This document shows, one piece after another, positions 3,407 to 26,124 of a stretch of 64,000 nt of DNA. Source of the stretch: a virus; IMG/VR virus record IMGVR_UViG_3300014885_000003, positions 4,737 through 68,736 of that record, one strand, 5' to 3'. Numbering within the stretch: the stretch's first letter is position 1; the number at the start of each line of letters is the position of its first letter. The notes under the pieces were generated by a model that worked only from the letters and a program-made list of their open reading frames with translations, did not search any database and was not told the origin of the DNA. The position numbers and the translations under genes are program-made.

Positions 3407-5186
3407 CCTGGATGCGAGTAGCTTTAGTATTCGCGCAAACCTCGGCGTTCCTGCTGATCAGTTTGACGCTGAGGTCGCGTCACCGGATGAGTGGGTCGAT
3501 GCAGATGATACCGACCGCATTTCGCTTCAGCTTGGTCTCATGAAGGCGGATGAGACAGAAGTTCTAATCTCTCACCTCGTCGACGGAGTTATTGACGAAT
3601 ATACCATTCGTGTTACTCCTGATGAGATCATCACGACCGTTCAGGGTCGTGATGGCATGGCGATCACACTGGATCGACAAGTCAATAAGACGTACCCTCG
3701 CGGCGCAGCGCAAGGCGGTACAGCTGATCGAGTCGACGCTGATGTATCGATCAAGGCCATTAAGCCGGAGATCGCGCCGACCGGCCGTTGGAGAGCGTCG
3801 GAAATTGCAGGGGACGTGATGGCTGAAGTCAGTATGCTTCAAGTCTCGTGGCAGGTTCGGGATTACGAACTGCGAGTGGACTTCAATGCGTCAGGGAGAC
3901 CGCTCGATATTCTTCGCCAACTCGCTGAACCTTGGGGTCAGGCCGAGTCCTCGCCGGTTGACATCTTCGTTGAAGGATCAGTCGTGATCGTTCGTAATCG
4001 CACACCTCAGCCAATCGAGGCATCGGCGTATCGATTCCATATCCGCGACGCTCGGATCAAGGACTTAACGATAACCAAGAGACCTCCGAAGCGTCTTGGC
4101 CGTGTGATCCTGGACGGCATGCTGATCCAGCCGAAGGACGATGTGGGAGTGGCGGCCTTCGAACTTAGTGATCCAACCCTTGACATCGAAGAGCGAAACA
4201 TCAAGGACGTGACGTCCAGCGAGGTCTCTGTCGTACGAGGCCCGGACGGACTGATCTTGGCTCAGACGTCTTCATCCATGAAGTATCGAATGCCTGATGG
4301 TGTCATGCTGGGACAAACCAAGACCACGCTGACTCAGCGTGGCAACGGTATGGAACTCACCCAGCGAGAGACGGTCGTCAATACCTGGGAGACAATTGAG
4401 TACGATCAAGGCGGGCGACCCCTGAAGCAACCGAACCAGTTGAGTGGAACGACAACGATAGAAGGCATTCATCCTGCGGACAAGAGCGGCACGTTCCAAG
4501 TGCTTCGGACAGAGGGATCTGGATTCGCGTATGACTCGGACAACTTCCTGACGATGACGACCACGGAGAAGCGGGAACTTAATCTGAGAAGTCGCGCTCT
4601 GGAAAAGCGGGAAATGGTCATTCGTCACTATCGAGACGTCGGACCGTTACTCTATGAGTTGACGACGACGACGTTTCAGTTCAACACTAAAGGAAACCGA
4701 TGGGACATTCTGAACCACGAAGTCACGCCAGGCGCTGGTCTACGACCTGGAGGACCTGGTCGATCGAAGACGTTCTTTATTCCAAAGGATGTTCTCAATC
4801 CAAGGAACCCAGGCGCTCCCGGTACCGGGATGCTGGTTCCGATCCAGTTGGACGAGACCATTTCGACGGACCCGCGAGCCGTTGACTTCACATACAGCAA
4901 TGAGAACTTGACGCTGGAGGATCTCCAGTACATCATGGCCCAACTTAGGGCTGGATCTGATCTATGGGAAGTTGAACTGACGTTCAATGCGATCACAATG
5001 CCGTGGCTGAAGAAGGGATCAGCGGTCTTCTTCTACGGACTGGAAAAGCCTGACGCGACGGCGATTGAGTTGAAGCCTGCGGTCGTGCTAGAAGTAAATA
5101 CGAGGTATGACGAGAGTTCGGAGGAGCCTTCCATGATTTCGAACGTGCGTTCCGTGTACTGGTTCGCTGTGCCGGTCATGGTCTGA
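3399..5186 (+). CDS. Putative baseplate hub/tail protein
   Basis: 595 aa; N-terminal GVIDE...VQGRD pattern typical of gpD/gp27-like hubs; tail context. Confidence 0.5.
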   Translation: MPDLDASSFSIRANLGVPADQFDAEVASPDEWVDADDTDRISLQLGLMKADETEVLISHLVDGVIDEYTIRVTPDEIITTVQGRDGMAITLDRQVNKTYPRGAAQGGTADRVDADVSIKAIKPEIAPTGRWRASEIAGDVMAEVSMLQVSWQVRDYELRVDFNASGRPLDILRQLAEPWGQAESSPVDIFVEGSVVIVRNRTPQPIEASAYRFHIRDARIKDLTITKRPPKRLGRVILDGMLIQPKDDVGVAAFELSDPTLDIEERNIKDVTSSEVSVVRGPDGLILAQTSSSMKYRMPDGVMLGQTKTTLTQRGNGMELTQRETVVNTWETIEYDQGGRPLKQPNQLSGTTTIEGIHPADKSGTFQVLRTEGSGFAYDSDNFLTMTTTEKRELNLRSRALEKREMVIRHYRDVGPLLYELTTTTFQFNTKGNRWDILNHEVTPGAGLRPGGPGRSKTFFIPKDVLNPRNPGAPGTGMLVPIQLDETISTDPRAVDFTYSNENLTLEDLQYIMAQLRAGSDLWEVELTFNAITMPWLKKGSAVFFYGLEKPDATAIELKPAVVLEVNTRYDESSEEPSMISNVRSVYWFAVPVMV

Positions 5187-5422
5187 TGCCAAATCCTACC
5201 TTCGCTCAAGCAGTGCGGTTGATCGCTGAGAAGACTGGAGGAGGTGTCAAGCGCGCTCGGATCGCCTCGACTGTCGGTGACAGCGCAGCAGTGCAGTTCA
5301 GTAGCTCGGTGACCGGAAGTGTCAGCACGACCGATGAACCTCTTTTCCCTGGTGATTCTGTATGGGTTCAGCCAATCGTAGGACGTGGAGGCACTATCGT
5401 CGCGATTCACGGCCGTGCCTGA
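5186..5422 (+). CDS. Small OB-fold-like baseplate protein
   Basis: TGATG coupling; PGDSVWV motif resembles the spike/gpV N-terminal OB fold. Confidence 0.45.
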   Translation: MPNPTFAQAVRLIAEKTGGGVKRARIASTVGDSAAVQFSSSVTGSVSTTDEPLFPGDSVWVQPIVGRGGTIVAIHGRA

Positions 5423-7721
5423 TCCAACGATTGGTCAGGCGTTCACAGAACTAATCAAGAAGACCCGAGGTCTGTCCCCGTCAGGAGCGCCGACCACCTT
5501 CGAACGTGTCGAAGCTACGTATGATGATGGTACTGCACAAGTTCTTGGGCAGCGCATTCCCATCTCCGGTATAGGGCCTGTTCAGGTGGGTGAGCGTGTC
5601 GTGGTCGCATGGAAGGACAAGCGGCCTCTGACGATCATTAAGCACTCCGCACGCCGTACTACAGTAGAGACTCCATCGCCTAGAGGAGGCAAGATCGTCG
5701 AGGAGCTATTCATTGCTACCAATAACGGAGTACTCGATATCTGGTTCAGGAACGCCAATCAGAACGTCCCTCTGGGTCTGTCATCGAACTGGGCCGGGTC
5801 TCCAGCCAACTTGAACACGCCGATCGAAGTGCGGTGGGGACAGGACAGGGCGCACTTCGTTGTGCGCACTGGCACTCCAACAGCAGGAGACATCACCAAC
5901 CAAGGCGCACACCCTTATGCATTCCTTCGCATAGTACAGGAGTTCTATGTTTTCGAGCTGACGAGGCAGAGCGAGACGACTCCAGTCGGTTCCTTTGCTG
6001 CCTCCGCGACACTGACCGGGAAGTTCCAGCCATACGGGGCGAACGGCACGTTCAATGTCTACAGCTTCGTCACACACTTCCATGCGGAAGCCGCGGTGTG
6101 GGGCCAGAAGTTCGATAAGACACAGACAGTCGGTGCAGCGTTCGTATCTATCGTGACTGATGACGACGTGGAGGCTGACACTGTTGATGATCGTACAGTC
6201 ACCCGGTCCTTGAAGTTGCAGGACATCTTGAATGGAGTCAATACTGAGTTCACGGACTCCATCAGTCTTGAGCTAGTGCGCCGTGTCTTCTACGGCACCA
6301 TCCAAGACTTCGGGACGAGCCGAGATGGCAAGTTGATGCTGGTGCTGTTGTTCAACTTGCACAACCTTGGCGATACGCTTTCAAGTGGAGGGACAGGAAG
6401 CATCACCGGAGACGCGCTCACAAGCTCTGGAGGAGTCGGCAACCCGACGCCGGAAGCCCCGGGAGATCCGGACTGCGCGGTCACTACAGTCTCCGCGGCG
6501 CGCAACCCTCAAGTCGTGCAGTCTCCCATTCGAGGGCACTTTGGAGGAGGGTCATTCGGCGAAGGCCACTTCATAGTTGTCAATATGCAGGACCAGACCG
6601 TGACGTGGATGTCGCTGAAGAACGCTGCCACGCTGGAGGGCATTTTCCGCACGACCATTCGGTATAACCCGATGTTGGTAAAGACTCTGTTCTCTGACTC
6701 GTCTCCTCCTGGTAGCGGGACCACGTGCTCGTTCAACTTGTTCTCGTTCAATTTGGCGGGCACTGGAGTGACGGAGCGTTTGTCTTTCACGGACCCGGAT
6801 GGGAGCGGGTGGATCACCAGGAAGATGCACTTGTGGGAGGAGACTAAGTTCCCGTTCATTGATGCAAGCGCGAACATGTTGGACGTGGACAGCACGTCGC
6901 TAGTTACTGAGTCAAATCTGTACACTCCATTCTCGTCAGGAACAGTCTCGGTGCCTCCAATTTCATCTCTCTCTGTGTTGAACATTGGTGTTCGATACAT
7001 CAAGAAATCGTTTGAGGAGCCTGGCAACTGGACCTATCGCATCAAGCAATCGATCCTGCTTGAGAGTGCAATCGAAGAACAGGGCGCCGAGCGTATACCA
7101 GCGGTCATTGCGGTTGTGGTTGACAGAGTTCGTCGACTCGTGCCGGTCGTCAGTCCATTCTTTGGAAAGGAGATCGGGGCGTTTGTCGTGACAGATACTG
7201 GCCAGCTCTTGGCGACGCTGTCTCCATTTACCACCACGAACGTAGCAACAGCCGCGACAAACGAAGATCGTTTTGCTTTGGGCAATGTGAAGGATGATGG
7301 CTCGAACATTATCCTCATGGCTGGGAACCGCTATCACGTGGTGTGGCGGAAGGAGAAGGACGCGGTCATTCAGGTTTTCCTGACACACGCTCAGAGCAAC
7401 ACAACGATTCAGATTGGAATAGACCTTGCAAAGTATCAGTCCCGAGGGCTCCTGGTGCTGAAGCGAGATTGGATGTACGACACCAAGGAGGACGAGGCTG
7501 GCCGGAAGTTTGTTGAGGCGTGGGACTTTGATACTGGGGCTCCGTCGCTCTCCATTGCAGCTCAGGACTTTCCTCCGGAGGATGTTGCGATGCAGCAAGT
7601 GAAGCAGCTGCTGGATTTAGAGGACGGGCAGGCCCCGCTCTTGGCGGCCACGTCCTATCAGGTGATCAACAGCCAGCAGATACTCAGCCCAGTCGGTCGG
7701 TTCAAGGAAGAAGGCACGTGA
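5415..7721 (+). CDS. Large tail spike/receptor-binding-like protein
   Basis: GTG start overlapping the previous stop; N-terminus paralogous to 5186-5422 (VGERVVV); beta-rich body. Confidence 0.5.
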   Translation: MPDPTIGQAFTELIKKTRGLSPSGAPTTFERVEATYDDGTAQVLGQRIPISGIGPVQVGERVVVAWKDKRPLTIIKHSARRTTVETPSPRGGKIVEELFIATNNGVLDIWFRNANQNVPLGLSSNWAGSPANLNTPIEVRWGQDRAHFVVRTGTPTAGDITNQGAHPYAFLRIVQEFYVFELTRQSETTPVGSFAASATLTGKFQPYGANGTFNVYSFVTHFHAEAAVWGQKFDKTQTVGAAFVSIVTDDDVEADTVDDRTVTRSLKLQDILNGVNTEFTDSISLELVRRVFYGTIQDFGTSRDGKLMLVLLFNLHNLGDTLSSGGTGSITGDALTSSGGVGNPTPEAPGDPDCAVTTVSAARNPQVVQSPIRGHFGGGSFGEGHFIVVNMQDQTVTWMSLKNAATLEGIFRTTIRYNPMLVKTLFSDSSPPGSGTTCSFNLFSFNLAGTGVTERLSFTDPDGSGWITRKMHLWEETKFPFIDASANMLDVDSTSLVTESNLYTPFSSGTVSVPPISSLSVLNIGVRYIKKSFEEPGNWTYRIKQSILLESAIEEQGAERIPAVIAVVVDRVRRLVPVVSPFFGKEIGAFVVTDTGQLLATLSPFTTTNVATAATNEDRFALGNVKDDGSNIILMAGNRYHVVWRKEKDAVIQVFLTHAQSNTTIQIGIDLAKYQSRGLLVLKRDWMYDTKEDEAGRKFVEAWDFDTGAPSLSIAAQDFPPEDVAMQQVKQLLDLEDGQAPLLAATSYQVINSQQILSPVGRFKEEGT

Positions 7722-22333: not shown

Positions 22334-22444
22334 TCTGCCCTCGCTGTGGTCGACCGATGGTCGGATGGCTGGTGGTACGGCCGGACCGTTGTAGTCCGAA
22401 GTACTGGGTCAACTGTATTCGCAACCCGAAGTGAAAGGGACACC

Positions 22445-24049
22445 ATGAAGCTGATCGACTCACTCAAGGCGATCCGTCGCACGTCAACTCCCCTGGTCGG
22501 TATCGAGTCGCCCGATCCCGGAGCGACGATCCAGGTCATTCGCGCAGCGTTCGAGGAAGGCACGACACCGCTACCGCTCTTCCGGTGGGACATCAGCAAC
22601 GGCCTGTCGCCGATGAACAAGTCCGGTCTGGAGATCATGCGGAAGCTGTTGAGCGGCACGGAGCCGAACGAGTGGCCCGGTATGACGTCGAACCCGGGAC
22701 AGTGCCTGGTGCTTCTTCAGAACCTTCCCGGTGAGGACAACGAAGGCGACAAGGTGACTTGCCGGGCTCCCATGGTGTTCTTCCTCAATCCGCAACTGTT
22801 CGTCAGCGGCGACAAGCCGGACGAGCCGACGATCCAAGGCATCTGGAACCTGCGCGACCTGTTCAAGCAGGACCGCCGGACGCTGATCATGCTCGGGACG
22901 TCTCTCCGGATGCCTCCGGAGTTGTCGCAGGACGTGATCATTCTGAAAGAACCGCTGCCGGCAGACGATCAGCTCGGTGAGATCATCGCGGCTCAGATGG
23001 AGGGCTTCGGCCTGAAGCTGACCGATAACGTCAAGGCGCAGGCGATCGACGCAACCCGAGGTCTGTCCGCCTTCGTGGCAGAGCAGGCGACGGCCATGTC
23101 GATCGGCGACGAAGGGATCATCCTCGGCGACCTCTGGGAACGCAAGCGGACCGCGATCGAGCAGACCCGCGGTCTATCGGTCGATCGTGGGTCGGAAGAC
23201 TTCGCCTCGATCGGTGGTCAGAGTCAGATTAAGAAGTTCGGGACGCTGCTCCTGAAGTCGCCTCGGCGCCCTCGGTTGTTCGTCCGGATCGATGAGCTGG
23301 AGAAGATGCTCGGCGGAGCCGGCACCCGAGGAGCAGGCGACAATACGGGCGTGTCGCAGGATAGGCTCGGAACGATCCTTCGGGAGATGGAAGACAACGA
23401 TTGGACCGGGCTCCTGGCCGTCGGCCCTGCCGGTTCCGGAAAGTCGCTCCTCAGCAAGGCCCTCGGCAACTCCTCCGATCCGCAGGTCATGAGTATCGCG
23501 ATGGACCTTGGCGCCATGAGTTCCGGTCGGGTCGGCGCGTCTGAGACCTTGATTCGTGATGCGATGCGGACGATCAAGGGCGTTGCCGGTCCTGGAGGCG
23601 CGTTCTTTATCGCGACTGTCAACAAGCTGGACGTCCTACCGCCGGAGCTGCGACGCAGGTTCCGAATGGGCATCTGGTTCTTCGATCTTCCTGACGCTGA
23701 TGAGCTTGCGAGTATCTGGGAGATTAACCTGGCCAAGTACAGCTTGGCGAAGTCGACCCGCGGAAAGGACATGATCGACGATACGAACCTGACCGGCGCC
23801 GACATCCGGAACCTGTGCGACATTGCGTCGCGCCTCGGGTGTTCGCTGAAGGAGGCGTTCCAGTACATCACACCCATCGCGGTGTCCGATCCTGACTCGA
23901 TCGATAACCTTCGTCGGACCGCTGACGGTCGGTTCCTGTCGGCGTCGAAGCCAGGCCCGTACCGGATGGGTGATCCGCTGGTGAAGGTCACGACGAACAT
24001 CTCAGCGACGGCAGCTCCACGCCGAGCGCGATTCGGAGAGGAGCGATGA
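22445..24049 (+). CDS. Ycf46-like AAA+ ATPase with rearranged ATPase core
   Basis: Degenerate N-terminal AAA domain (WDISNGL, PPEL, PLP), IGG motif, RIDELEK, GPAGSGKS, ATVNKLDVLPPELRRRF, FFDLP, TGADI. Confidence 0.85.
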   Translation: MKLIDSLKAIRRTSTPLVGIESPDPGATIQVIRAAFEEGTTPLPLFRWDISNGLSPMNKSGLEIMRKLLSGTEPNEWPGMTSNPGQCLVLLQNLPGEDNEGDKVTCRAPMVFFLNPQLFVSGDKPDEPTIQGIWNLRDLFKQDRRTLIMLGTSLRMPPELSQDVIILKEPLPADDQLGEIIAAQMEGFGLKLTDNVKAQAIDATRGLSAFVAEQATAMSIGDEGIILGDLWERKRTAIEQTRGLSVDRGSEDFASIGGQSQIKKFGTLLLKSPRRPRLFVRIDELEKMLGGAGTRGAGDNTGVSQDRLGTILREMEDNDWTGLLAVGPAGSGKSLLSKALGNSSDPQVMSIAMDLGAMSSGRVGASETLIRDAMRTIKGVAGPGGAFFIATVNKLDVLPPELRRRFRMGIWFFDLPDADELASIWEINLAKYSLAKSTRGKDMIDDTNLTGADIRNLCDIASRLGCSLKEAFQYITPIAVSDPDSIDNLRRTADGRFLSASKPGPYRMGDPLVKVTTNISATAAPRRARFGEER

Positions 24050-24154: not shown

Positions 24155-24478
24155 ATGCCTTGCTGGACGGTCGTCACTAACACGGTCGATCTGGAGAAGG
24201 TAAAGGATCTGGCCCTGCTCGGCCAGGTCCTTGCCAAGCACTTCAACGCGCAGGCAATAGGGTCGTTCCGAGACCGATGGCGCTTCCTGGACTCCGGCCA
24301 GTGGATCGAGGTCAAGGACGGCAAGGTGACGTCGCAGATGGACGCGAACAGCCTGGCTGCCGTCGTGAAGAAGATCAACGTCGCGTACTCAGGTGCTGTC
24401 GTGAAGGCTGCTGCGCAGCGATTCGGATGGCGGACAACTCAGAAGGATGCGACACACTTCGTCGTAGCGAAAGGATGA
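24155..24478 (+). CDS. DUF1257/Ycf35-like protein
   Basis: KDLALL...INVAYS.AVVKAAAQRFGW; typical neighbour of Ycf46. Confidence 0.55.
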   Translation: MPCWTVVTNTVDLEKVKDLALLGQVLAKHFNAQAIGSFRDRWRFLDSGQWIEVKDGKVTSQMDANSLAAVVKKINVAYSGAVVKAAAQRFGWRTTQKDATHFVVAKG

Positions 24479-24900
24479 TCATGAGGGAACACAAGTTCGT
24501 CTGTGAACGGTGCGGGGAAACGAAGACGTGTCGGATCATCGGCTGCCAGGGCGACTGCGCGACGATCTGCGGCCTCTGCGCGCGAGCGCCGAAGAAGCGC
24601 GCCGCACTGGGTCTGATCCTGATCCCGTTGCTGGGTCTCCTGGCCGGGTGTTCGTCGCAGTGGGAGCTGCGAATCGTCGAACGCGTGCGGATGTCGGGTG
24701 TGACGGTTTCAATGAGTGCTGGTCGGGTGTTGACGCGGCGCTTGAATCTGGCGCAGTGTGAGGCGATCAAGGGGGAGATGATCGTCAGGTTCGGACCGAA
24801 GACGATCACAGCAGATCCTTTGCTAGTGGCGAACAAGGTCTTTGAACATACGTTCGAGTGTCTGAAGTTCGGAACGCTACCTGGATCGGAGCCGGTCTGA
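24475..24900 (+). CDS. Cys-rich protein with TM/lipobox-like segment
   Basis: CERC, CGLC, then LILIPLLGLLAGC. Confidence 0.45.
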   Translation: MIMREHKFVCERCGETKTCRIIGCQGDCATICGLCARAPKKRAALGLILIPLLGLLAGCSSQWELRIVERVRMSGVTVSMSAGRVLTRRLNLAQCEAIKGEMIVRFGPKTITADPLLVANKVFEHTFECLKFGTLPGSEPV

Positions 24901-25106
24901 TGGACAAGCTGGAAATCGAAATCCTGGAAGACGGTACGATCAAGACATCGACCGGAGCAGTCGGATCGGTGAACCACCAGAACGCGGAGGCGTTCATGGC
25001 CTTCCTCGCGAAGATGACGGGAGGCGCATCGAAGCGTACGGCCCGAGGTGCTCACGCGCATCTGCTTCACGACCACTCGCACGAACAGGATCACGATCAC
25101 AACTAG
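24900..25106 (+). CDS. DUF2997-like protein with His-rich tail
   Basis: LEIEILEDGTIK.STG...FLAKMTGG; HAHLLHDHSHEQDHDH. Confidence 0.55.
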   Translation: MDKLEIEILEDGTIKTSTGAVGSVNHQNAEAFMAFLAKMTGGASKRTARGAHAHLLHDHSHEQDHDHN

Positions 25107-25215: not shown

Positions 25216-26124
25216 ATGACGGACGCACCCAACACCACTGCCAGCGATATCCTCTCCAAGTCGGTCTGCCTGTCCCTGTCGACGTCCCGATTCTCGGTTC
25301 GACGTCGAATGGGCAAGGAGCACATCGAAACCAAGGCCGACAAGGCCATGATCCACGTCGGCAAGGACATCCTCGACTCCTCGGAGCTGCGAGCGATCCT
25401 GTACTGTGACAACGACACTCGGTTCTACCTGGATCGCGTCTGTCTGCCGGCGCCGATGTTCAAGTCCGGTGTGTACCTCCTGCCGATCGAACTCATGGAA
25501 GAGACGTTCAAGCGACTGGACGAGTTCCAGGCGCGCCGTGTCGAGCTGATCGCGAAGTTCCGGGAGGCGTATCCGACTCGGAAGACCCAGGCCAGGAAGC
25601 GCCTGGGTCCGGCGTTCGATCCGACGGACTACCCTCCGATCGAGGAACTCGAAAAGGCCTTCTCGTTCGAGTACAACATCTTCACCTTCGACACGCCGAA
25701 GACCGGCATCTCGAAAGCGCTGTTCAACAAGCAGCGCGAGAAGCTGGAACGTGTCTGGTCTGAGGCCGCGGGAGAGATCAGGGATTCGCTACGTGTCGCC
25801 ATGGGCGAGGTCGTCGCGGAGATGACGGAACGCATGACCGGTCAGGCGGACGGCAAGAAGCGCCGGTTCAAGGACGCATACATCGCGAACGTCACCACGT
25901 TCCTGGATACGGTCCAGGCGCGCAATCTGACCAACGACACGGACCTGACCGCGCTGGTGGAGAAGGCTCGGAAGATCATGAAGGGCATCAGCGCAGACGA
26001 CATCCGGGATGACGACAAGCTGCGCGCTGACATCGGCACGAAGTTCGGCGAGATCAAGGACTCGCTCGGGAAGATGATGGAGGTTCGGCCCGCTCGGAAA
26101 GTCACGCTCAAGGACGAGATCTAG
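25216..26124 (+). CDS. DUF3150-like protein
   Basis: AAGGAG SD; KDILD..EL.AI, CLP..GVYLLP, DYPPIEEL..AFSF. Confidence 0.6.
   Translation: MTDAPNTTASDILSKSVCLSLSTSRFSVRRRMGKEHIETKADKAMIHVGKDILDSSELRAILYCDNDTRFYLDRVCLPAPMFKSGVYLLPIELMEETFKRLDEFQARRVELIAKFREAYPTRKTQARKRLGPAFDPTDYPPIEELEKAFSFEYNIFTFDTPKTGISKALFNKQREKLERVWSEAAGEIRDSLRVAMGEVVAEMTERMTGQADGKKRRFKDAYIANVTTFLDTVQARNLTNDTDLTALVEKARKIMKGISADDIRDDDKLRADIGTKFGEIKDSLGKMMEVRPARKVTLKDEI

What the first reader, a model, noticed from the sequence alone, without database searches (positions are those of the whole stretch)
23180..23700. AAA+ ATPase with Walker B placed before Walker A (internal block swap)
Seen order: IGG helix, then LFVRIDELEKML..GDNTGVSQDRLGTIL (Walker B plus following helix, from 23276), then GLLAVGPAGSGKS..MDLGAMSSGRVGASE..IRDAM (Walker A, strand 2, pore-loop helix, from about 23408), then FFIATVN (sensor 1), LPPELRRRF and FFDLP. 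Established: in Ycf46 and classic AAA proteins the order is Walker A, pore loop, Walker B (WIDEIDK..GDSG), sensor 1. Both blocks are intact but exchanged, which is a non-circular permutation of the P-loop core. Catalytic residues look retained. The pore-loop aromatic is replaced by R, and the usual RxGRFD is RRRF.
Basis: partly seen in the sequence, partly recalled or inferred. Interest (0 to 1): 0.8.

Follow-up and report, generated by a model that had tools for sequence, protein, structure and literature searches.

The report
Phage AAA+ ATPase with swapped core
An uncultivated phage encodes a protein-remodelling ATPase in which the piece carrying the Walker B motif is encoded ahead of the piece carrying Walker A; hundreds of relatives share this order and keep every catalytic residue, so a textbook enzyme fold appears to have been rewired in nature without losing its working parts.

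Summary
The gene (window 22445-24049, +, 534 aa) encodes a two-domain Ycf46-like AAA+ ATPase. Its core order is Walker B block, then Walker A block, then sensor 1.

- **Non-colinear homology.** Block profiles cut from the family alignment hit 116 of 116 normal-order relatives (Corndog gp96 type). The Walker B block lands downstream of Walker A there (median 48 bits; best decoy 3.2).
- **Family-wide.** The swapped order is present in 334 of 334 distinct family sequences, 80 of 80 IMG/VR loci, 23 GTDB loci and the cultured Tunturiibacter phage Tunturi_3. This excludes an assembly artefact.
- **Catalytic residues.** K333, E284, N393 and R405 are invariant (334/334).
- **Structure.** AlphaFold gives a confident model (pLDDT 93.3) with five core strands. 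The ATPase module overlays p97 D2 (Z 16.1, 2.5 Å, 200 residues). Covariation pairs the relocated strand with the sensor-1 strand.
- **Origin.** The permuted proteins form one clade (65/65 bootstraps). Its sister is a normal-order group that shares the same DUF3150 neighbour gene.

My six literature searches found no description. This scan had already met the same kind of protein on other DNA (e1-6016509). ATPase activity, sheet order and substrate remain untested.

The parts
22445..24049 (+). Whole gene: 534-aa Ycf46-like AAA+ ATPase with permuted core (P0002). The ORF is open from GTG 22346, but database homologues start at ATG 22445.
   Evidence: P0002, 100% identity, 534 aa; AlphaFold pLDDT 93.3, pTM 0.88.
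22445..23218 (+). Block N (res 1-258): N-terminal degenerate AAA-like domain with no P-loop, ending in the IGG motif. It is D1-like in overlays on p97/Cdc48.
   Evidence: Block N profile hits 116/116 normal-order relatives, median 32.8 bits. The whole model overlays p97 D1-D2 with Z 18.7 and 403 residues aligned. Residues 20-29 show no GK[ST].
23219..23266 (+). Helix alpha0 and linker (res 259-274) leading into the relocated block.
   Evidence: DSSP helix 260-271. Covariation with alpha1 and beta1: 266-340 and 266-323.
23267..23401 (+). Block B (res 275-319): Walker B strand (E278-282, D283 E284), pore-loop-2-like Gly/Asp loop and helix alpha3 (303-317), encoded BEFORE Walker A.
   Evidence: Block B profile hits 116/116 normal-order proteins, median 48.4 bits, best decoy 3.2, located after their Walker A. 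D283 is D in 312 and E in 22; E284 is kept in 334/334.
23402..23596 (+). Block A (res 320-384): strand beta1 (321-326), Walker A GPAGSGKS (327-334, nt 23423-23446), alpha1, beta2 (349-353), pore loop 1 (G361 R362 V363 G364) and alpha2 (365-381).
   Evidence: Pfam AAA matches only profile positions 2-54 here. Block A profile scores a median 71.8 bits in 116/116. K333 and G330 are kept in 334/334.
23597..24046 (+). Block C (res 385-534): sensor-1 strand (386-392, N393 at 23621-23623), Arg fingers R404/R405 (23654-23659), beta5, lid domain, and a C-terminal tail ending in acidic residues.
   Evidence: matches to p97 D2 sensor-1, SRH and lid. N393 and R405 are kept in 334/334, R404 in 312/334.
25216..26124 (+). 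Conserved neighbour gene: DUF3150-family protein (302 aa).
   Evidence: Present next to 98 of 104 permuted ATPase loci and 12 of 53 normal-order loci. Pfam DUF3150 matches 29 of 81 members, best E 9.6e-25; the window's own copy scores 23.9 bits, below the 24.9 cut-off.
24155..24478 (+). Small 107-aa gene between the ATPase and the DUF3150 gene; a recurrent neighbour.
   Evidence: BLASTP cluster present in 39 of 104 permuted loci and 0 of 53 normal-order loci. No Pfam family.

Best explanation
This is a real, inherited rearrangement of the AAA+ nucleotide-binding core in a phage Ycf46-like ATPase. Normal-order relatives run alpha0, then A (beta1, P-loop, alpha1, beta2, pore loop 1, alpha2), then B (beta3 with Walker B, pore-loop-2 loop, alpha3), then C (beta4 with sensor 1, Arg fingers, beta5, lid). 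Here and in its whole clade the order is alpha0, B, A, C. The three breakpoints lie in loops at the same edge of the sheet. I infer that the relocated strand still sits between the sensor-1 strand and beta2. On that inference the usual 5-1-4-3-2 sheet, the helix faces and the right-handed crossovers are kept, and only three loop connections are re-routed by one or two strand positions. ATP would then be bound by K333/S334, Mg and the attacking water handled by D283/E284 from the earlier chain segment, N393 would act as sensor 1, and R404/R405 would reach into the neighbouring subunit of a ring. The degenerate N-domain would form a second, inactive tier as in p97-type double-ring enzymes. What is shown: the swap, its family-wide conservation, its single origin, conservation of the catalytic residues, and a confident predicted fold. 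What is inferred: the exact sheet order, ATPase activity and ring assembly. Its role is most likely protein or complex remodelling together with the co-inherited DUF3150 protein, inside the phage's replication-gene block. The substrate is unknown. The simplest origin is an in-frame tandem duplication of A-B followed by loss of the first A and the last B. No intermediate was found.
For: 1. Block profiles from the 120-sequence family alignment, tested against 116 normal-order proteins (5 of 121 dropped for length). B hits 116/116, median 48.4 bits, at +53..+92 from Walker A. A hits 116/116, 71.8 bits, at -6..+52. C lies at +96..+227. N hits 116/116, 32.8 bits. The best score among 232 reversed or shuffled decoys is 1.0-4.3 bits.
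2. Non-colinear domains against p97 D2.
3. Pfam AAA covers positions 2-130 of 131 in one stretch in Corndog gp96 (85.6 bits), but only positions 2-54 here (33.2 bits).
4. Order N-B-A-C is seen in 80/80 IMG/VR loci, 334/334 distinct sequences and 23 complete GTDB loci, against 52 N-A-B-C loci. Tunturiibacter phage Tunturi_3 gp103 has it too. The best 150 cluster representatives all score 585 bits or more; 147 match the whole profile in one stretch, and the other 3 are interrupted by inteins.
5. Residue census over 334 sequences: E284, K333, G330, N393 and R405 are invariant. D283 is D in 312 and E in 22. R404 is R in 312.
6. Inteins sit in or next to the P-loop and near sensor 1 in three members. 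From recall, inteins typically insert at essential sites of active enzymes.
7. AlphaFold2 on 120 sequences: pLDDT 93.3, pTM 0.88. Strands at 278-282, 321-326, 349-353, 386-392 and 410-412.
8. VIA-align: model 245-506 against p97 D2 (6g2x) gives Z 16.1, rmsd 2.5 Å, 200 residues aligned, 25% identity. About 200 is what blocks alpha0+A+C add up to.
9. Covariation (334 sequences, Meff 265): 7 relocated-strand/sensor-1-strand pairs fall in the top 100 of 14,725, in parallel register (283-391 rank 21, 280-388 rank 35). beta1-beta5 pair 325-413 is rank 13. There are many alpha2-alpha3 pairs. L278-A381 is rank 3. The best relocated-strand/beta1 pair ranks only 449.
10. Tree from block-wise alignments: the permuted clade is monophyletic (SH 0.713 with 137 sequences; 65 of 65 FastTree bootstraps with 60 sequences). 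The sister clade is seven normal-order proteins, L109-L112 and L114-L116 (parent support 1.0; 60 of 65 bootstraps).
11. All seven sisters have the same DUF3150 neighbour.
12. The ESM Atlas structural neighbours include a cyanobacterial Ycf46 cluster (TM 0.72/0.76, 439 residues aligned).
Against: - No coordinates of the model could be inspected. The position of the relocated strand in the sheet is therefore inferred from covariation and from what is left unaligned, not seen directly.
- AlphaFold may lean toward the common AAA+ arrangement.
- Covariation support is uneven. Relocated strand/beta2 is weak (best rank 123) and beta1/beta4 is weak (best rank 128). One strong pair, F387-M408 (rank 19), joins strands that are not neighbours in the 5-1-4-3-2 order.
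- The Walker B block match to p97 alone is only 5.7 bits, i-Evalue 48.
- SH support for the permuted clade in the larger tree is modest (0.713). The tree rests on block-wise alignments that I re-ordered in a script and on midpoint rooting.
- Walker A position 6 is Ala in 86, Ser in 18, and Thr or Cys in 3 each of 334 sequences. This departs from GxxxxGK[ST].
- There are no biochemical, expression or structural data for any member, and the substrate is unknown.
- No duplication intermediate was found in 530 proteins, so the proposed origin is conjecture.
Confidence: 0.85

Rival explanations
1. Assembly or chimera artefact: the two blocks were exchanged when the contig was assembled.
For: The window is an uncultivated-virus record, linear, with a CheckV completeness estimate of 71%. 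I did not lay reads on the junctions.
Against: The same order with the same boundaries is seen in 334 of 334 distinct sequences from many independent assemblies, in 80 of 80 IMG/VR loci, in 23 GTDB loci, and in the complete genome of a cultured phage, Tunturi_3.
Confidence: 0.01
2. Misreading: the upstream IDELEK is a chance acidic motif in a linker, and the true Walker B lies after Walker A (for example around D354).
For: D354 is conserved (D in 318 of 334). phmmer could align residues 383-420 to the post-Walker-B helix of p97.
Against: The 45-residue upstream block matches the Walker B block of 116/116 normal-order relatives at a median 48.4 bits, against 3.2 bits for the best decoy. D354 corresponds to the Asp at the end of beta2 that the normal-order relatives also have, in front of their own Walker B. 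No protein has two B-like blocks (0 of 529).
Confidence: 0.02
3. The swap is real, but the protein no longer works as a standard AAA+ motor: the sheet is re-arranged, or the site is a nucleotide-binding switch rather than a hydrolysing motor.
For: Pore loop 1 lacks an aromatic residue in most members (L 224, I 40 of 334). Walker A position 6 is often Ala (86 of 334). Sheet order was not seen directly. One strong covariation pair (387-408) does not fit the standard order.
Against: The glutamate E284, the sensor-1 Asn and the Arg R405 matter mainly for hydrolysis (from recall), and all three are invariant in 334 of 334. Normal-order sisters and other Ycf46-like proteins also read LVG at the pore loop. 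The ATPase module overlays p97 D2 at 2.5 Å over 200 residues. Seven relocated-strand/sensor-1-strand pairs fall in the top 100 couplings.
Confidence: 0.1

Closest known systems
Normal-order Ycf46-like AAA ATPases with a DUF3150 neighbour, in MAG loci L109-L112 and L114-L116 (record titles: Isosphaeraceae, Gimesia, Pirellulaceae, Pirellula, Planctomycetales, Flavobacteriales)
   Same: Sister clade in the tree. They have the same N-domain, the same four blocks with high block-C scores (111-130 bits), the same LVG pore loop and the same DUF3150 neighbour in 7 of 7.
   Different: Block order is N-A-B-C, the standard order. The Arg-finger segment is the longer R..ERFDG form.
Mycobacterium phage Corndog gp96 'AAA-ATPase' (NP_817947.1) and its relatives P0124-P0243
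   Same: Phage-borne, about 530-590 aa, with a homologous N-domain and all four blocks.
   Different: Standard order. Pfam AAA matches in one full-length stretch. The pore loop reads YVG. About 23% identity to the window's protein.
Cyanobacterial and plastid Ycf46
   Same: Nearest cellular structural neighbours in the ESM Atlas (TM 0.72/0.76, 439 residues aligned). A Cyanobacteria MAG locus (L164) carries all four blocks. One paper (passages read) describes Ycf46 as a KaiC-interacting AAA ATPase affecting circadian timing and carbon concentration (PMC13683863).
   Different: Standard order. It is cellular, not phage-borne. Its biochemical mechanism is also unknown.
p97/VCP, Cdc48, VAT, Rix7, NVL, AFG2 (type II classic-clade AAA+ unfoldases)
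   Same: Best solved-structure matches. Foldseek E is about 1e-13. VIA gives Z 18.7 over both tiers and Z 16.1 at 2.5 Å for D2 alone. Walker A, Walker B, sensor 1 and the double Arg finger are shared.
   Different: Standard order and an active or semi-active D1. The N-tier here has no P-loop. The Walker B block of p97 matches only weakly (5.7 bits).
Circularly permuted GTPases (YjeQ/RsgA, YlqF type; recalled, not tested here)
   Same: A precedent for a P-loop NTPase lineage whose nucleotide-binding motifs occur in a changed order along the chain while the fold is kept.
   Different: Those are TRAFAC GTPases with a true circular permutation of the whole domain. Here an ASCE/AAA+ core has two internal blocks exchanged between fixed flanks.

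Membership tests
AAA+ classic clade (Pfam PF00004 AAA) | Walker A P-loop GxxxxGK[ST] | tested here: met
   GPAGSGKS at 327-334. K333 and G330 are kept in 334/334. Position 334 is S in 287 and T in 47. Position 6 is G in 223, A in 86 and S in 18.
AAA+ classic clade (Pfam PF00004 AAA) | Walker B hhhhDE | tested here: met
   LFVRIDE at 278-284. E284 is kept in 334/334. D283 is D in 312 and E in 22. The block is homologous to the Walker B block of 116/116 normal-order relatives.
AAA+ classic clade (Pfam PF00004 AAA) | Colinear order Walker A, pore loop 1, Walker B, sensor 1 (one full-length match to the family profile) | tested here: not met
   PF00004 matches only profile positions 2-54 of 131 at residues 357-411 of the 567-aa ORF. 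Corndog gp96 matches 2-130 in one stretch. Block order is N-B-A-C.
AAA+ classic clade (Pfam PF00004 AAA) | Sensor-1 Asn and second-region-of-homology Arg fingers | tested here: met
   N393 is kept in 334/334, R405 in 334/334 and R404 in 312/334. These residues align to the p97 D2 sensor-1 and SRH segment.
AAA+ classic clade (Pfam PF00004 AAA) | Five-stranded parallel sheet in order 5-1-4-3-2 (ASCE; strand order as given in PMC7758060, passages read) | tested here: inconclusive
   The model has five strands. It overlays p97 D2 with 200 residues at 2.5 Å. Covariation supports relocated strand/beta4 (7 pairs in the top 100) and beta1/beta5 (rank 13), is weak for the other two adjacencies, and includes one off-pattern pair.
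AAA+ classic clade (Pfam PF00004 AAA) | Helical lid domain (PF17862 AAA_lid_3) | tested here: inconclusive
   PF17862 gives E 0.13 and 12.3 bits, below its cut-off. Profile and structure matches to p97 D2 run through residues 497-506.
Ycf46-like two-tier AAA ATPases | Homologous degenerate N-terminal AAA-like domain ahead of the active module | tested here: met
   Block N profile hits 116/116 Corndog-type proteins (median 32.8 bits) and 52 normal-order GTDB loci. The Atlas Ycf46 cluster gives TM 0.72/0.76.
Ycf46-like two-tier AAA ATPases | Neighbourhood with DUF3150, DUF1257 and DUF2997 genes (a lead from earlier notes e1-6138784 and e1-6016509) | tested here: inconclusive
   The DUF3150 neighbour is present in 98/104 permuted and 12/53 normal-order loci, and Pfam DUF3150 matches 29/81 members. 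The two small neighbour proteins of the window gave no DUF1257 or DUF2997 match even at E up to 10. That was a single-sequence scan only.
Ycf46-like two-tier AAA ATPases | Standard block order in the active module | tested here: not met
   The order is N-B-A-C against N-A-B-C in 116/116 Corndog-type proteins and 52 GTDB relatives.

The most novel reading that the evidence does not exclude
This clade is a natural, active AAA+ motor whose core has been covalently rewired. Pore loop 1 and alpha2 now feed directly into the sensor-1 strand instead of the Walker B strand. The inter-subunit-signalling helix alpha3 now feeds into the P-loop strand instead of sensor 1. If it still hydrolyses ATP and threads substrate in a ring, backbone continuity between these elements is dispensable for AAA+ mechanochemistry. 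It would also be the first documented non-circular permutation of an ASCE P-loop core that has been kept across a large, diversified lineage.
Probability: 0.6. Interest if true: 0.8.

Novelty: new variant of a known kind. Interest (0 to 1): 0.7.

Why it matters
The order Walker A, then Walker B, then sensor 1 along the chain is treated as a constant of P-loop ASCE ATPases. The review-type analysis I read in passages (PMC7758060) places Walker B on beta3 or beta4, after the P-loop strand.

Here a large phage lineage breaks that rule while keeping every catalytic residue. It comprises at least 150 clusters at 50% identity, found in soil and freshwater-type metagenomes, in MAGs titled Acidobacteriota, Nitrospirales and Armatimonadota-related, and in one cultured phage.

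This matters in three ways:

1. **Annotation.** Profile methods see only the first 54 positions of the AAA model. These proteins will therefore be under-called or taken for fragments.
2. **Fold evolution.** This is a clean natural case with an identified normal-order sister group that carries the same partner gene. Origin and fitness neutrality can be studied in matched pairs.
3. **Mechanism.** Models of AAA+ allostery pass signals from pore loops to the nucleotide site through elements that are covalently re-connected here. Comparing the natural permuted and normal-order sisters would test how much chain connectivity matters.

Tried and rejected
**Checks that gave nothing useful**

- Pairwise BLASTP of P0002 against Corndog gp96 gave one forced colinear HSP (145-503 against 157-549, 80 gap columns) that mis-pairs the blocks. 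It did not yield separate non-colinear HSPs, so I switched to block profiles.
- PHROGs: phrog_8638 matched at 3.6e-35 in 4 stretches, but only the best stretch is shown, so it could not be used for the order test.
- NCBIfam gave only weak partial hits to CDC48, PAN and FtsH models.
- Pfam on the two small neighbour proteins found no DUF1257 or DUF2997.
- Search for duplication intermediates: 0 of 530 (block A) and 0 of 529 (block B) proteins carry a second copy. Only fetched sequences could be searched. The 29,075 representative hits beyond the best 150 were not visible.
- DUF3150 neighbour: the AlphaFold model is confident (pLDDT 93.3). Foldseek against PDB gave nothing at E <= 0.001. The wide VIA search gave only generic helical-bundle rows (best Z 9.5 over 118 residues). 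No functional clue came from it.
- Complex prediction of the ATPase with the DUF3150 protein: verdict 'no answer' (score 0.00, mark 0.32). This is neither for nor against binding.
- IQ-TREE with ultrafast bootstrap timed out at 270 s. I replaced it with 65 FastTree bootstrap replicates.

**Literature**

- Six searches found no paper describing an AAA+ or P-loop ATPase with Walker B ahead of Walker A.
- The phrases 'permuted AAA', 'permuted ATPase', 'permuted P-loop' and 'Walker B precedes/preceding' occur in 0 papers of the library.
- In PMC7824862 and 10.64898/2026.10.19.760177 I read the matching passages only; 'permuted' there refers to methylases and FHA domains.
- I read passages only of PMC7758060 and PMC13683863.
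- The library lacks most subscription journals. I opened no supplements and did not look for the paper describing phage Tunturi_3. A description there or in supplements cannot be excluded.
Full report
**What is there**

The finding lies in one ORF, window 22346-24049 on the + strand. A database protein identical to it (P0002, 534 aa) starts at the ATG at 22445, and I number residues from there.
- IGG at 256-258;
- LFVRIDELEK from L278 (nt 23276);
- GLLAVGPAGSGKS from G322 (nt 23408);
- FFIATVN with N393;
- LPPELRRRF, then FFDLP.

The window is most of an IMG/VR virus record of 68,736 bases (linear; CheckV estimate 71% complete). Nearly all long ORFs are on the + strand. PHROG matches place the gene inside a replication block. 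Upstream are a helicase, a DnaB-like helicase and a primase. Downstream are a clamp-like processivity factor, a split family-A polymerase, a thymidylate synthase, an SSB, a methyltransferase, a UvsX-like recombinase and an SbcC-like protein.

**Is the order real and inherited?**

A word-indexed search returned 673 relatives at E <= 0.001 among 8,000 candidates scored. The best 120 are 42-67% identical and about 480-615 aa long. In the 24 that I printed, every row has the order IDE(I/L)EK, then Gly/Asp loop, then helix, then GxxGxGKS, then DLGA..VG.SE, then ATCN, then PPELRRRF, then FFDLP.

An exhaustive profile search of 1.84 billion cluster representatives gave 29,075 hits at E <= 0.001 and 3,417 at E <= 1e-30. 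The best 150 all score 585 bits or more. Of these, 147 match the whole profile in one stretch. The other three are 861-896 aa long and carry inteins.

I cut the family alignment into blocks: N (1-258), B (275-319, Walker B), A (320-384, Walker A and pore loop 1) and C (385-510).
- The block order is N-B-A-C in 80 of 80 IMG/VR loci.
- It is N-B-A-C in 334 of 334 distinct family sequences. Twelve of 346 were dropped as duplicates or as 700 aa or longer.
- A cultured phage, Tunturiibacter phage Tunturi_3 (gp103, annotated 'ATPase'), has it too.

An assembly artefact is therefore excluded without looking at reads.

**Is it a swap relative to normal AAA+ proteins?**

Three tests say yes.

1. *Pfam coverage.* Pfam AAA matches only profile positions 2-54 of 131 here (33.2 bits). 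It matches 2-130 in one stretch (85.6 bits) in Mycobacterium phage Corndog gp96. Corndog gp96 is a phage relative that tblastn found, and its sequence shows the standard order.
2. *Family profile against PDB sequences.* It gives non-colinear pieces on p97 D2:
   - profile 303-354 on chain 313-364 (29.1 bits);
   - profile 256-298 on chain 368-410 (5.7 bits, weak);
   - profile 344-442 on chain 396-500 (25.3 bits).
   
   The pieces tile the chain in the order A, B, C, while the profile order is B, A, C.
3. *Block profiles against 116 Corndog-type proteins* (5 of 121 dropped for length; results):

| Block | Hits | Median bits | Position relative to first Walker A Gly |
|---|---|---|---|
| B | 116/116 | 48.4 | +53 to +92 |
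| A | 116/116 | 71.8 | -6 to +52 |
| C | 116/116 | 46.4 | +96 onward |
| N | 116/116 | 32.8 | upstream |

The best of 232 reversed or shuffled decoys scored 1.0-4.3 bits. This is the decisive result: both blocks are intact homologues of the normal ones, and they are exchanged.

Reading the boundaries in ten proteins puts the three breakpoints in loops:
- between alpha0 and the first strand;
- at the conserved Pro between alpha2 and the Walker B strand;
- between alpha3 and the sensor-1 strand.

No protein among 530 has a second A or B block.

**Catalytic residues** (334 sequences)

| Residue | Role | Conservation |
|---|---|---|
| E284 | Walker B Glu | 334/334 |
| D283 | Walker B Asp | D 312, E 22 |
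| K333 | Walker A Lys | 334/334 |
| G330 | Walker A Gly | 334/334 |
| 334 | Walker A Ser/Thr | S 287, T 47 |
| N393 | sensor 1 | 334/334 |
| R405 | Arg finger | 334/334 |
| R404 | Arg finger | 312/334 |

Walker A position 6 is Gly in 223, Ala in 86 and Ser in 18.

The pore-loop-1 position is Leu in 224, Ile in 40, Tyr in 20, Phe in 14 and His in 13. The window's Arg is unusual within the family. Normal-order sisters also read LVG, so loss of the aromatic is not linked to the swap.

Inteins with LAGLIDADG endonucleases interrupt the P-loop region in P0282 and P0373 and the region before sensor 1 in P0262. From general knowledge, inteins favour essential sites of active enzymes.

**Fold**

AlphaFold2 on the 120-sequence alignment gives pLDDT 93.3 and pTM 0.88. 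In the core the elements run:
- helix 260-271;
- strand 278-282;
- helix 303-317;
- strand 321-326;
- helix 333-342;
- strand 349-353;
- helix 365-381;
- strand 386-392;
- helix 400-405;
- strand 410-412.

Foldseek finds p97, Cdc48, Rix7 and NVL at E about 1e-13. VIA-align overlays both tiers on p97 (Z 18.7, 403 residues, 4.9 Å). The ATPase module alone (245-506) overlays p97 D2 (6g2x) with Z 16.1, 2.5 Å and 200 residues aligned. The figure of 200 fits alpha0 + A + C, with block B left out by a sequential aligner.

I could not read coordinates, so I tested strand neighbours by mean-field covariation on residues 250-430 (334 sequences, Meff 265). Among 14,725 pairs:
- Seven relocated-strand/sensor-1-strand pairs are in the top 100, in parallel register (283-391 rank 21; 280-388 rank 35; 282-388 rank 42).
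- beta1-beta5 (325-413) is rank 13.
- alpha2 and alpha3 are linked by many pairs.
- L278-A381 (rank 3) joins the start of the relocated strand to the end of alpha2. These two points are covalently adjacent in normal proteins.
- The relocated strand does not couple to beta1 (best rank 449).

Points against this reading: relocated strand/beta2 (best rank 123) and beta1/beta4 (best rank 128) are weak, and 387-408 (rank 19) does not fit the standard order.

From the established 5-1-4-3-2 (equivalently 2-3-4-1-5) ASCE topology (PMC7758060, passages read), I infer that the swap keeps each helix on its own face and keeps all crossovers right-handed. The new connections (alpha0 to beta3, alpha3 to beta1, alpha2 to beta4) each move by only one or two strand positions at the same sheet edge.

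**Origin and relatives**

A scan of one genome per GTDB species gave 80 loci:
- 23 are complete N-B-A-C. Their record titles name MAGs of Acidobacteriota (Bryobacterales, Terriglobia, Solibacter), Nitrospirales, Chthonomonadales and Syntrophomonadaceae.
- 52 are N-A-B-C.
- 5 are partial.

Seven normal-order loci (L109-L112, L114-L116; Planctomycetota-type and one Flavobacteriales MAG) stand out by high block-C scores (111-130 bits, against 32-69 for the other complete normal-order loci).

In a tree from block-wise alignments (137 sequences, 453 columns), the 72 permuted proteins form one clade (SH 0.713, stem length 0.73). These seven are its sister (parent support 1.0). In 65 FastTree bootstraps on 60 sequences, the permuted split appears 65 times and the permuted-plus-sister split 60 times. 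The swap therefore happened once, inside the Ycf46-like radiation.

The ESM Atlas lists a cyanobacterial Ycf46 cluster among the structural neighbours (TM 0.72/0.76).

**Context and function**

A DUF3150-family gene follows the ATPase in 98 of 104 permuted loci and in 12 of 53 normal-order loci, including all seven sisters. Of the six permuted loci without it, three end within about 1.5 kb after the ATPase (L077, L096, L097), one holds only a partial ATPase ORF (L106), and two have full flanks (L056, L073). The ATPase-DUF3150 pair is therefore older than the swap.

A 107-aa gene recurs in 39 of 104 permuted loci. The DUF3150 model is confident but matches nothing solved.

The most likely function is ATP-driven remodelling of a protein or complex together with the DUF3150 partner during phage replication. 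This is inference from family and context only.

**Novelty**

My searches found no description of an AAA+ or other ASCE ATPase with Walker B ahead of Walker A. This scan had already reported the same kind of protein on another genome (e1-6016509). My tests were made independently of that report and agree with it.

I class it as a new variant of a known kind. The protein meets the catalytic-motif features of the AAA+ classic clade and fails its colinearity.

Noticed in passing
Family members P0262, P0282, P0373 (not in the window): Three permuted ATPases of 861-896 aa carry inteins with LAGLIDADG homing endonucleases. In P0282 and P0373 the intein is at or next to the P-loop. In P0262 it is shortly before the sensor-1 strand. 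Corndog-type normal-order relatives P0140 and P0142 also list HNH and intein Pfam domains.
   Followed up: partly
window 25216-26124 (+): The DUF3150-family neighbour gives a very confident AlphaFold model (pLDDT 93.3): a small sheet plus long helical hairpins. It has no solved-structure match beyond generic helical bundles. It is co-inherited with the ATPase in 98 of 104 permuted loci.
   Followed up: partly
window 24011-24046 and 26083-26121; loci L005-L164: Both the ATPase and the DUF3150 protein tend to end in an Arg followed, a few residues later, by an acidic C-terminus. A crude pattern matches 84 of 334 ATPases, 48 of 81 DUF3150 proteins and 72 of 2,078 other ORFs. R526 of the ATPase is invariant in the 120-sequence alignment.
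   Followed up: partly
Walker A, window 23423-23446, and family: The sixth Walker A position is Ala in 86, Ser in 18, and Thr or Cys in 3 each of 334 family members, instead of the usual Gly. The window's own protein has Gly.
   Followed up: no
locus L062 5456-6343 and 6505-7407: One IMG/VR phage carries two DUF3150-like ORFs close to its permuted ATPase: one overlapping the ATPase match (5001-6431) and one just downstream of it.
   Followed up: no
window 24155-24478 and 24858-25106 (+): Two small genes lie between the ATPase and the DUF3150 gene. BLASTP finds them in 21 and 31 of 80 IMG/VR loci. Neither has a Pfam match. The 82-aa one ends in a His-rich tail.
   Followed up: partly
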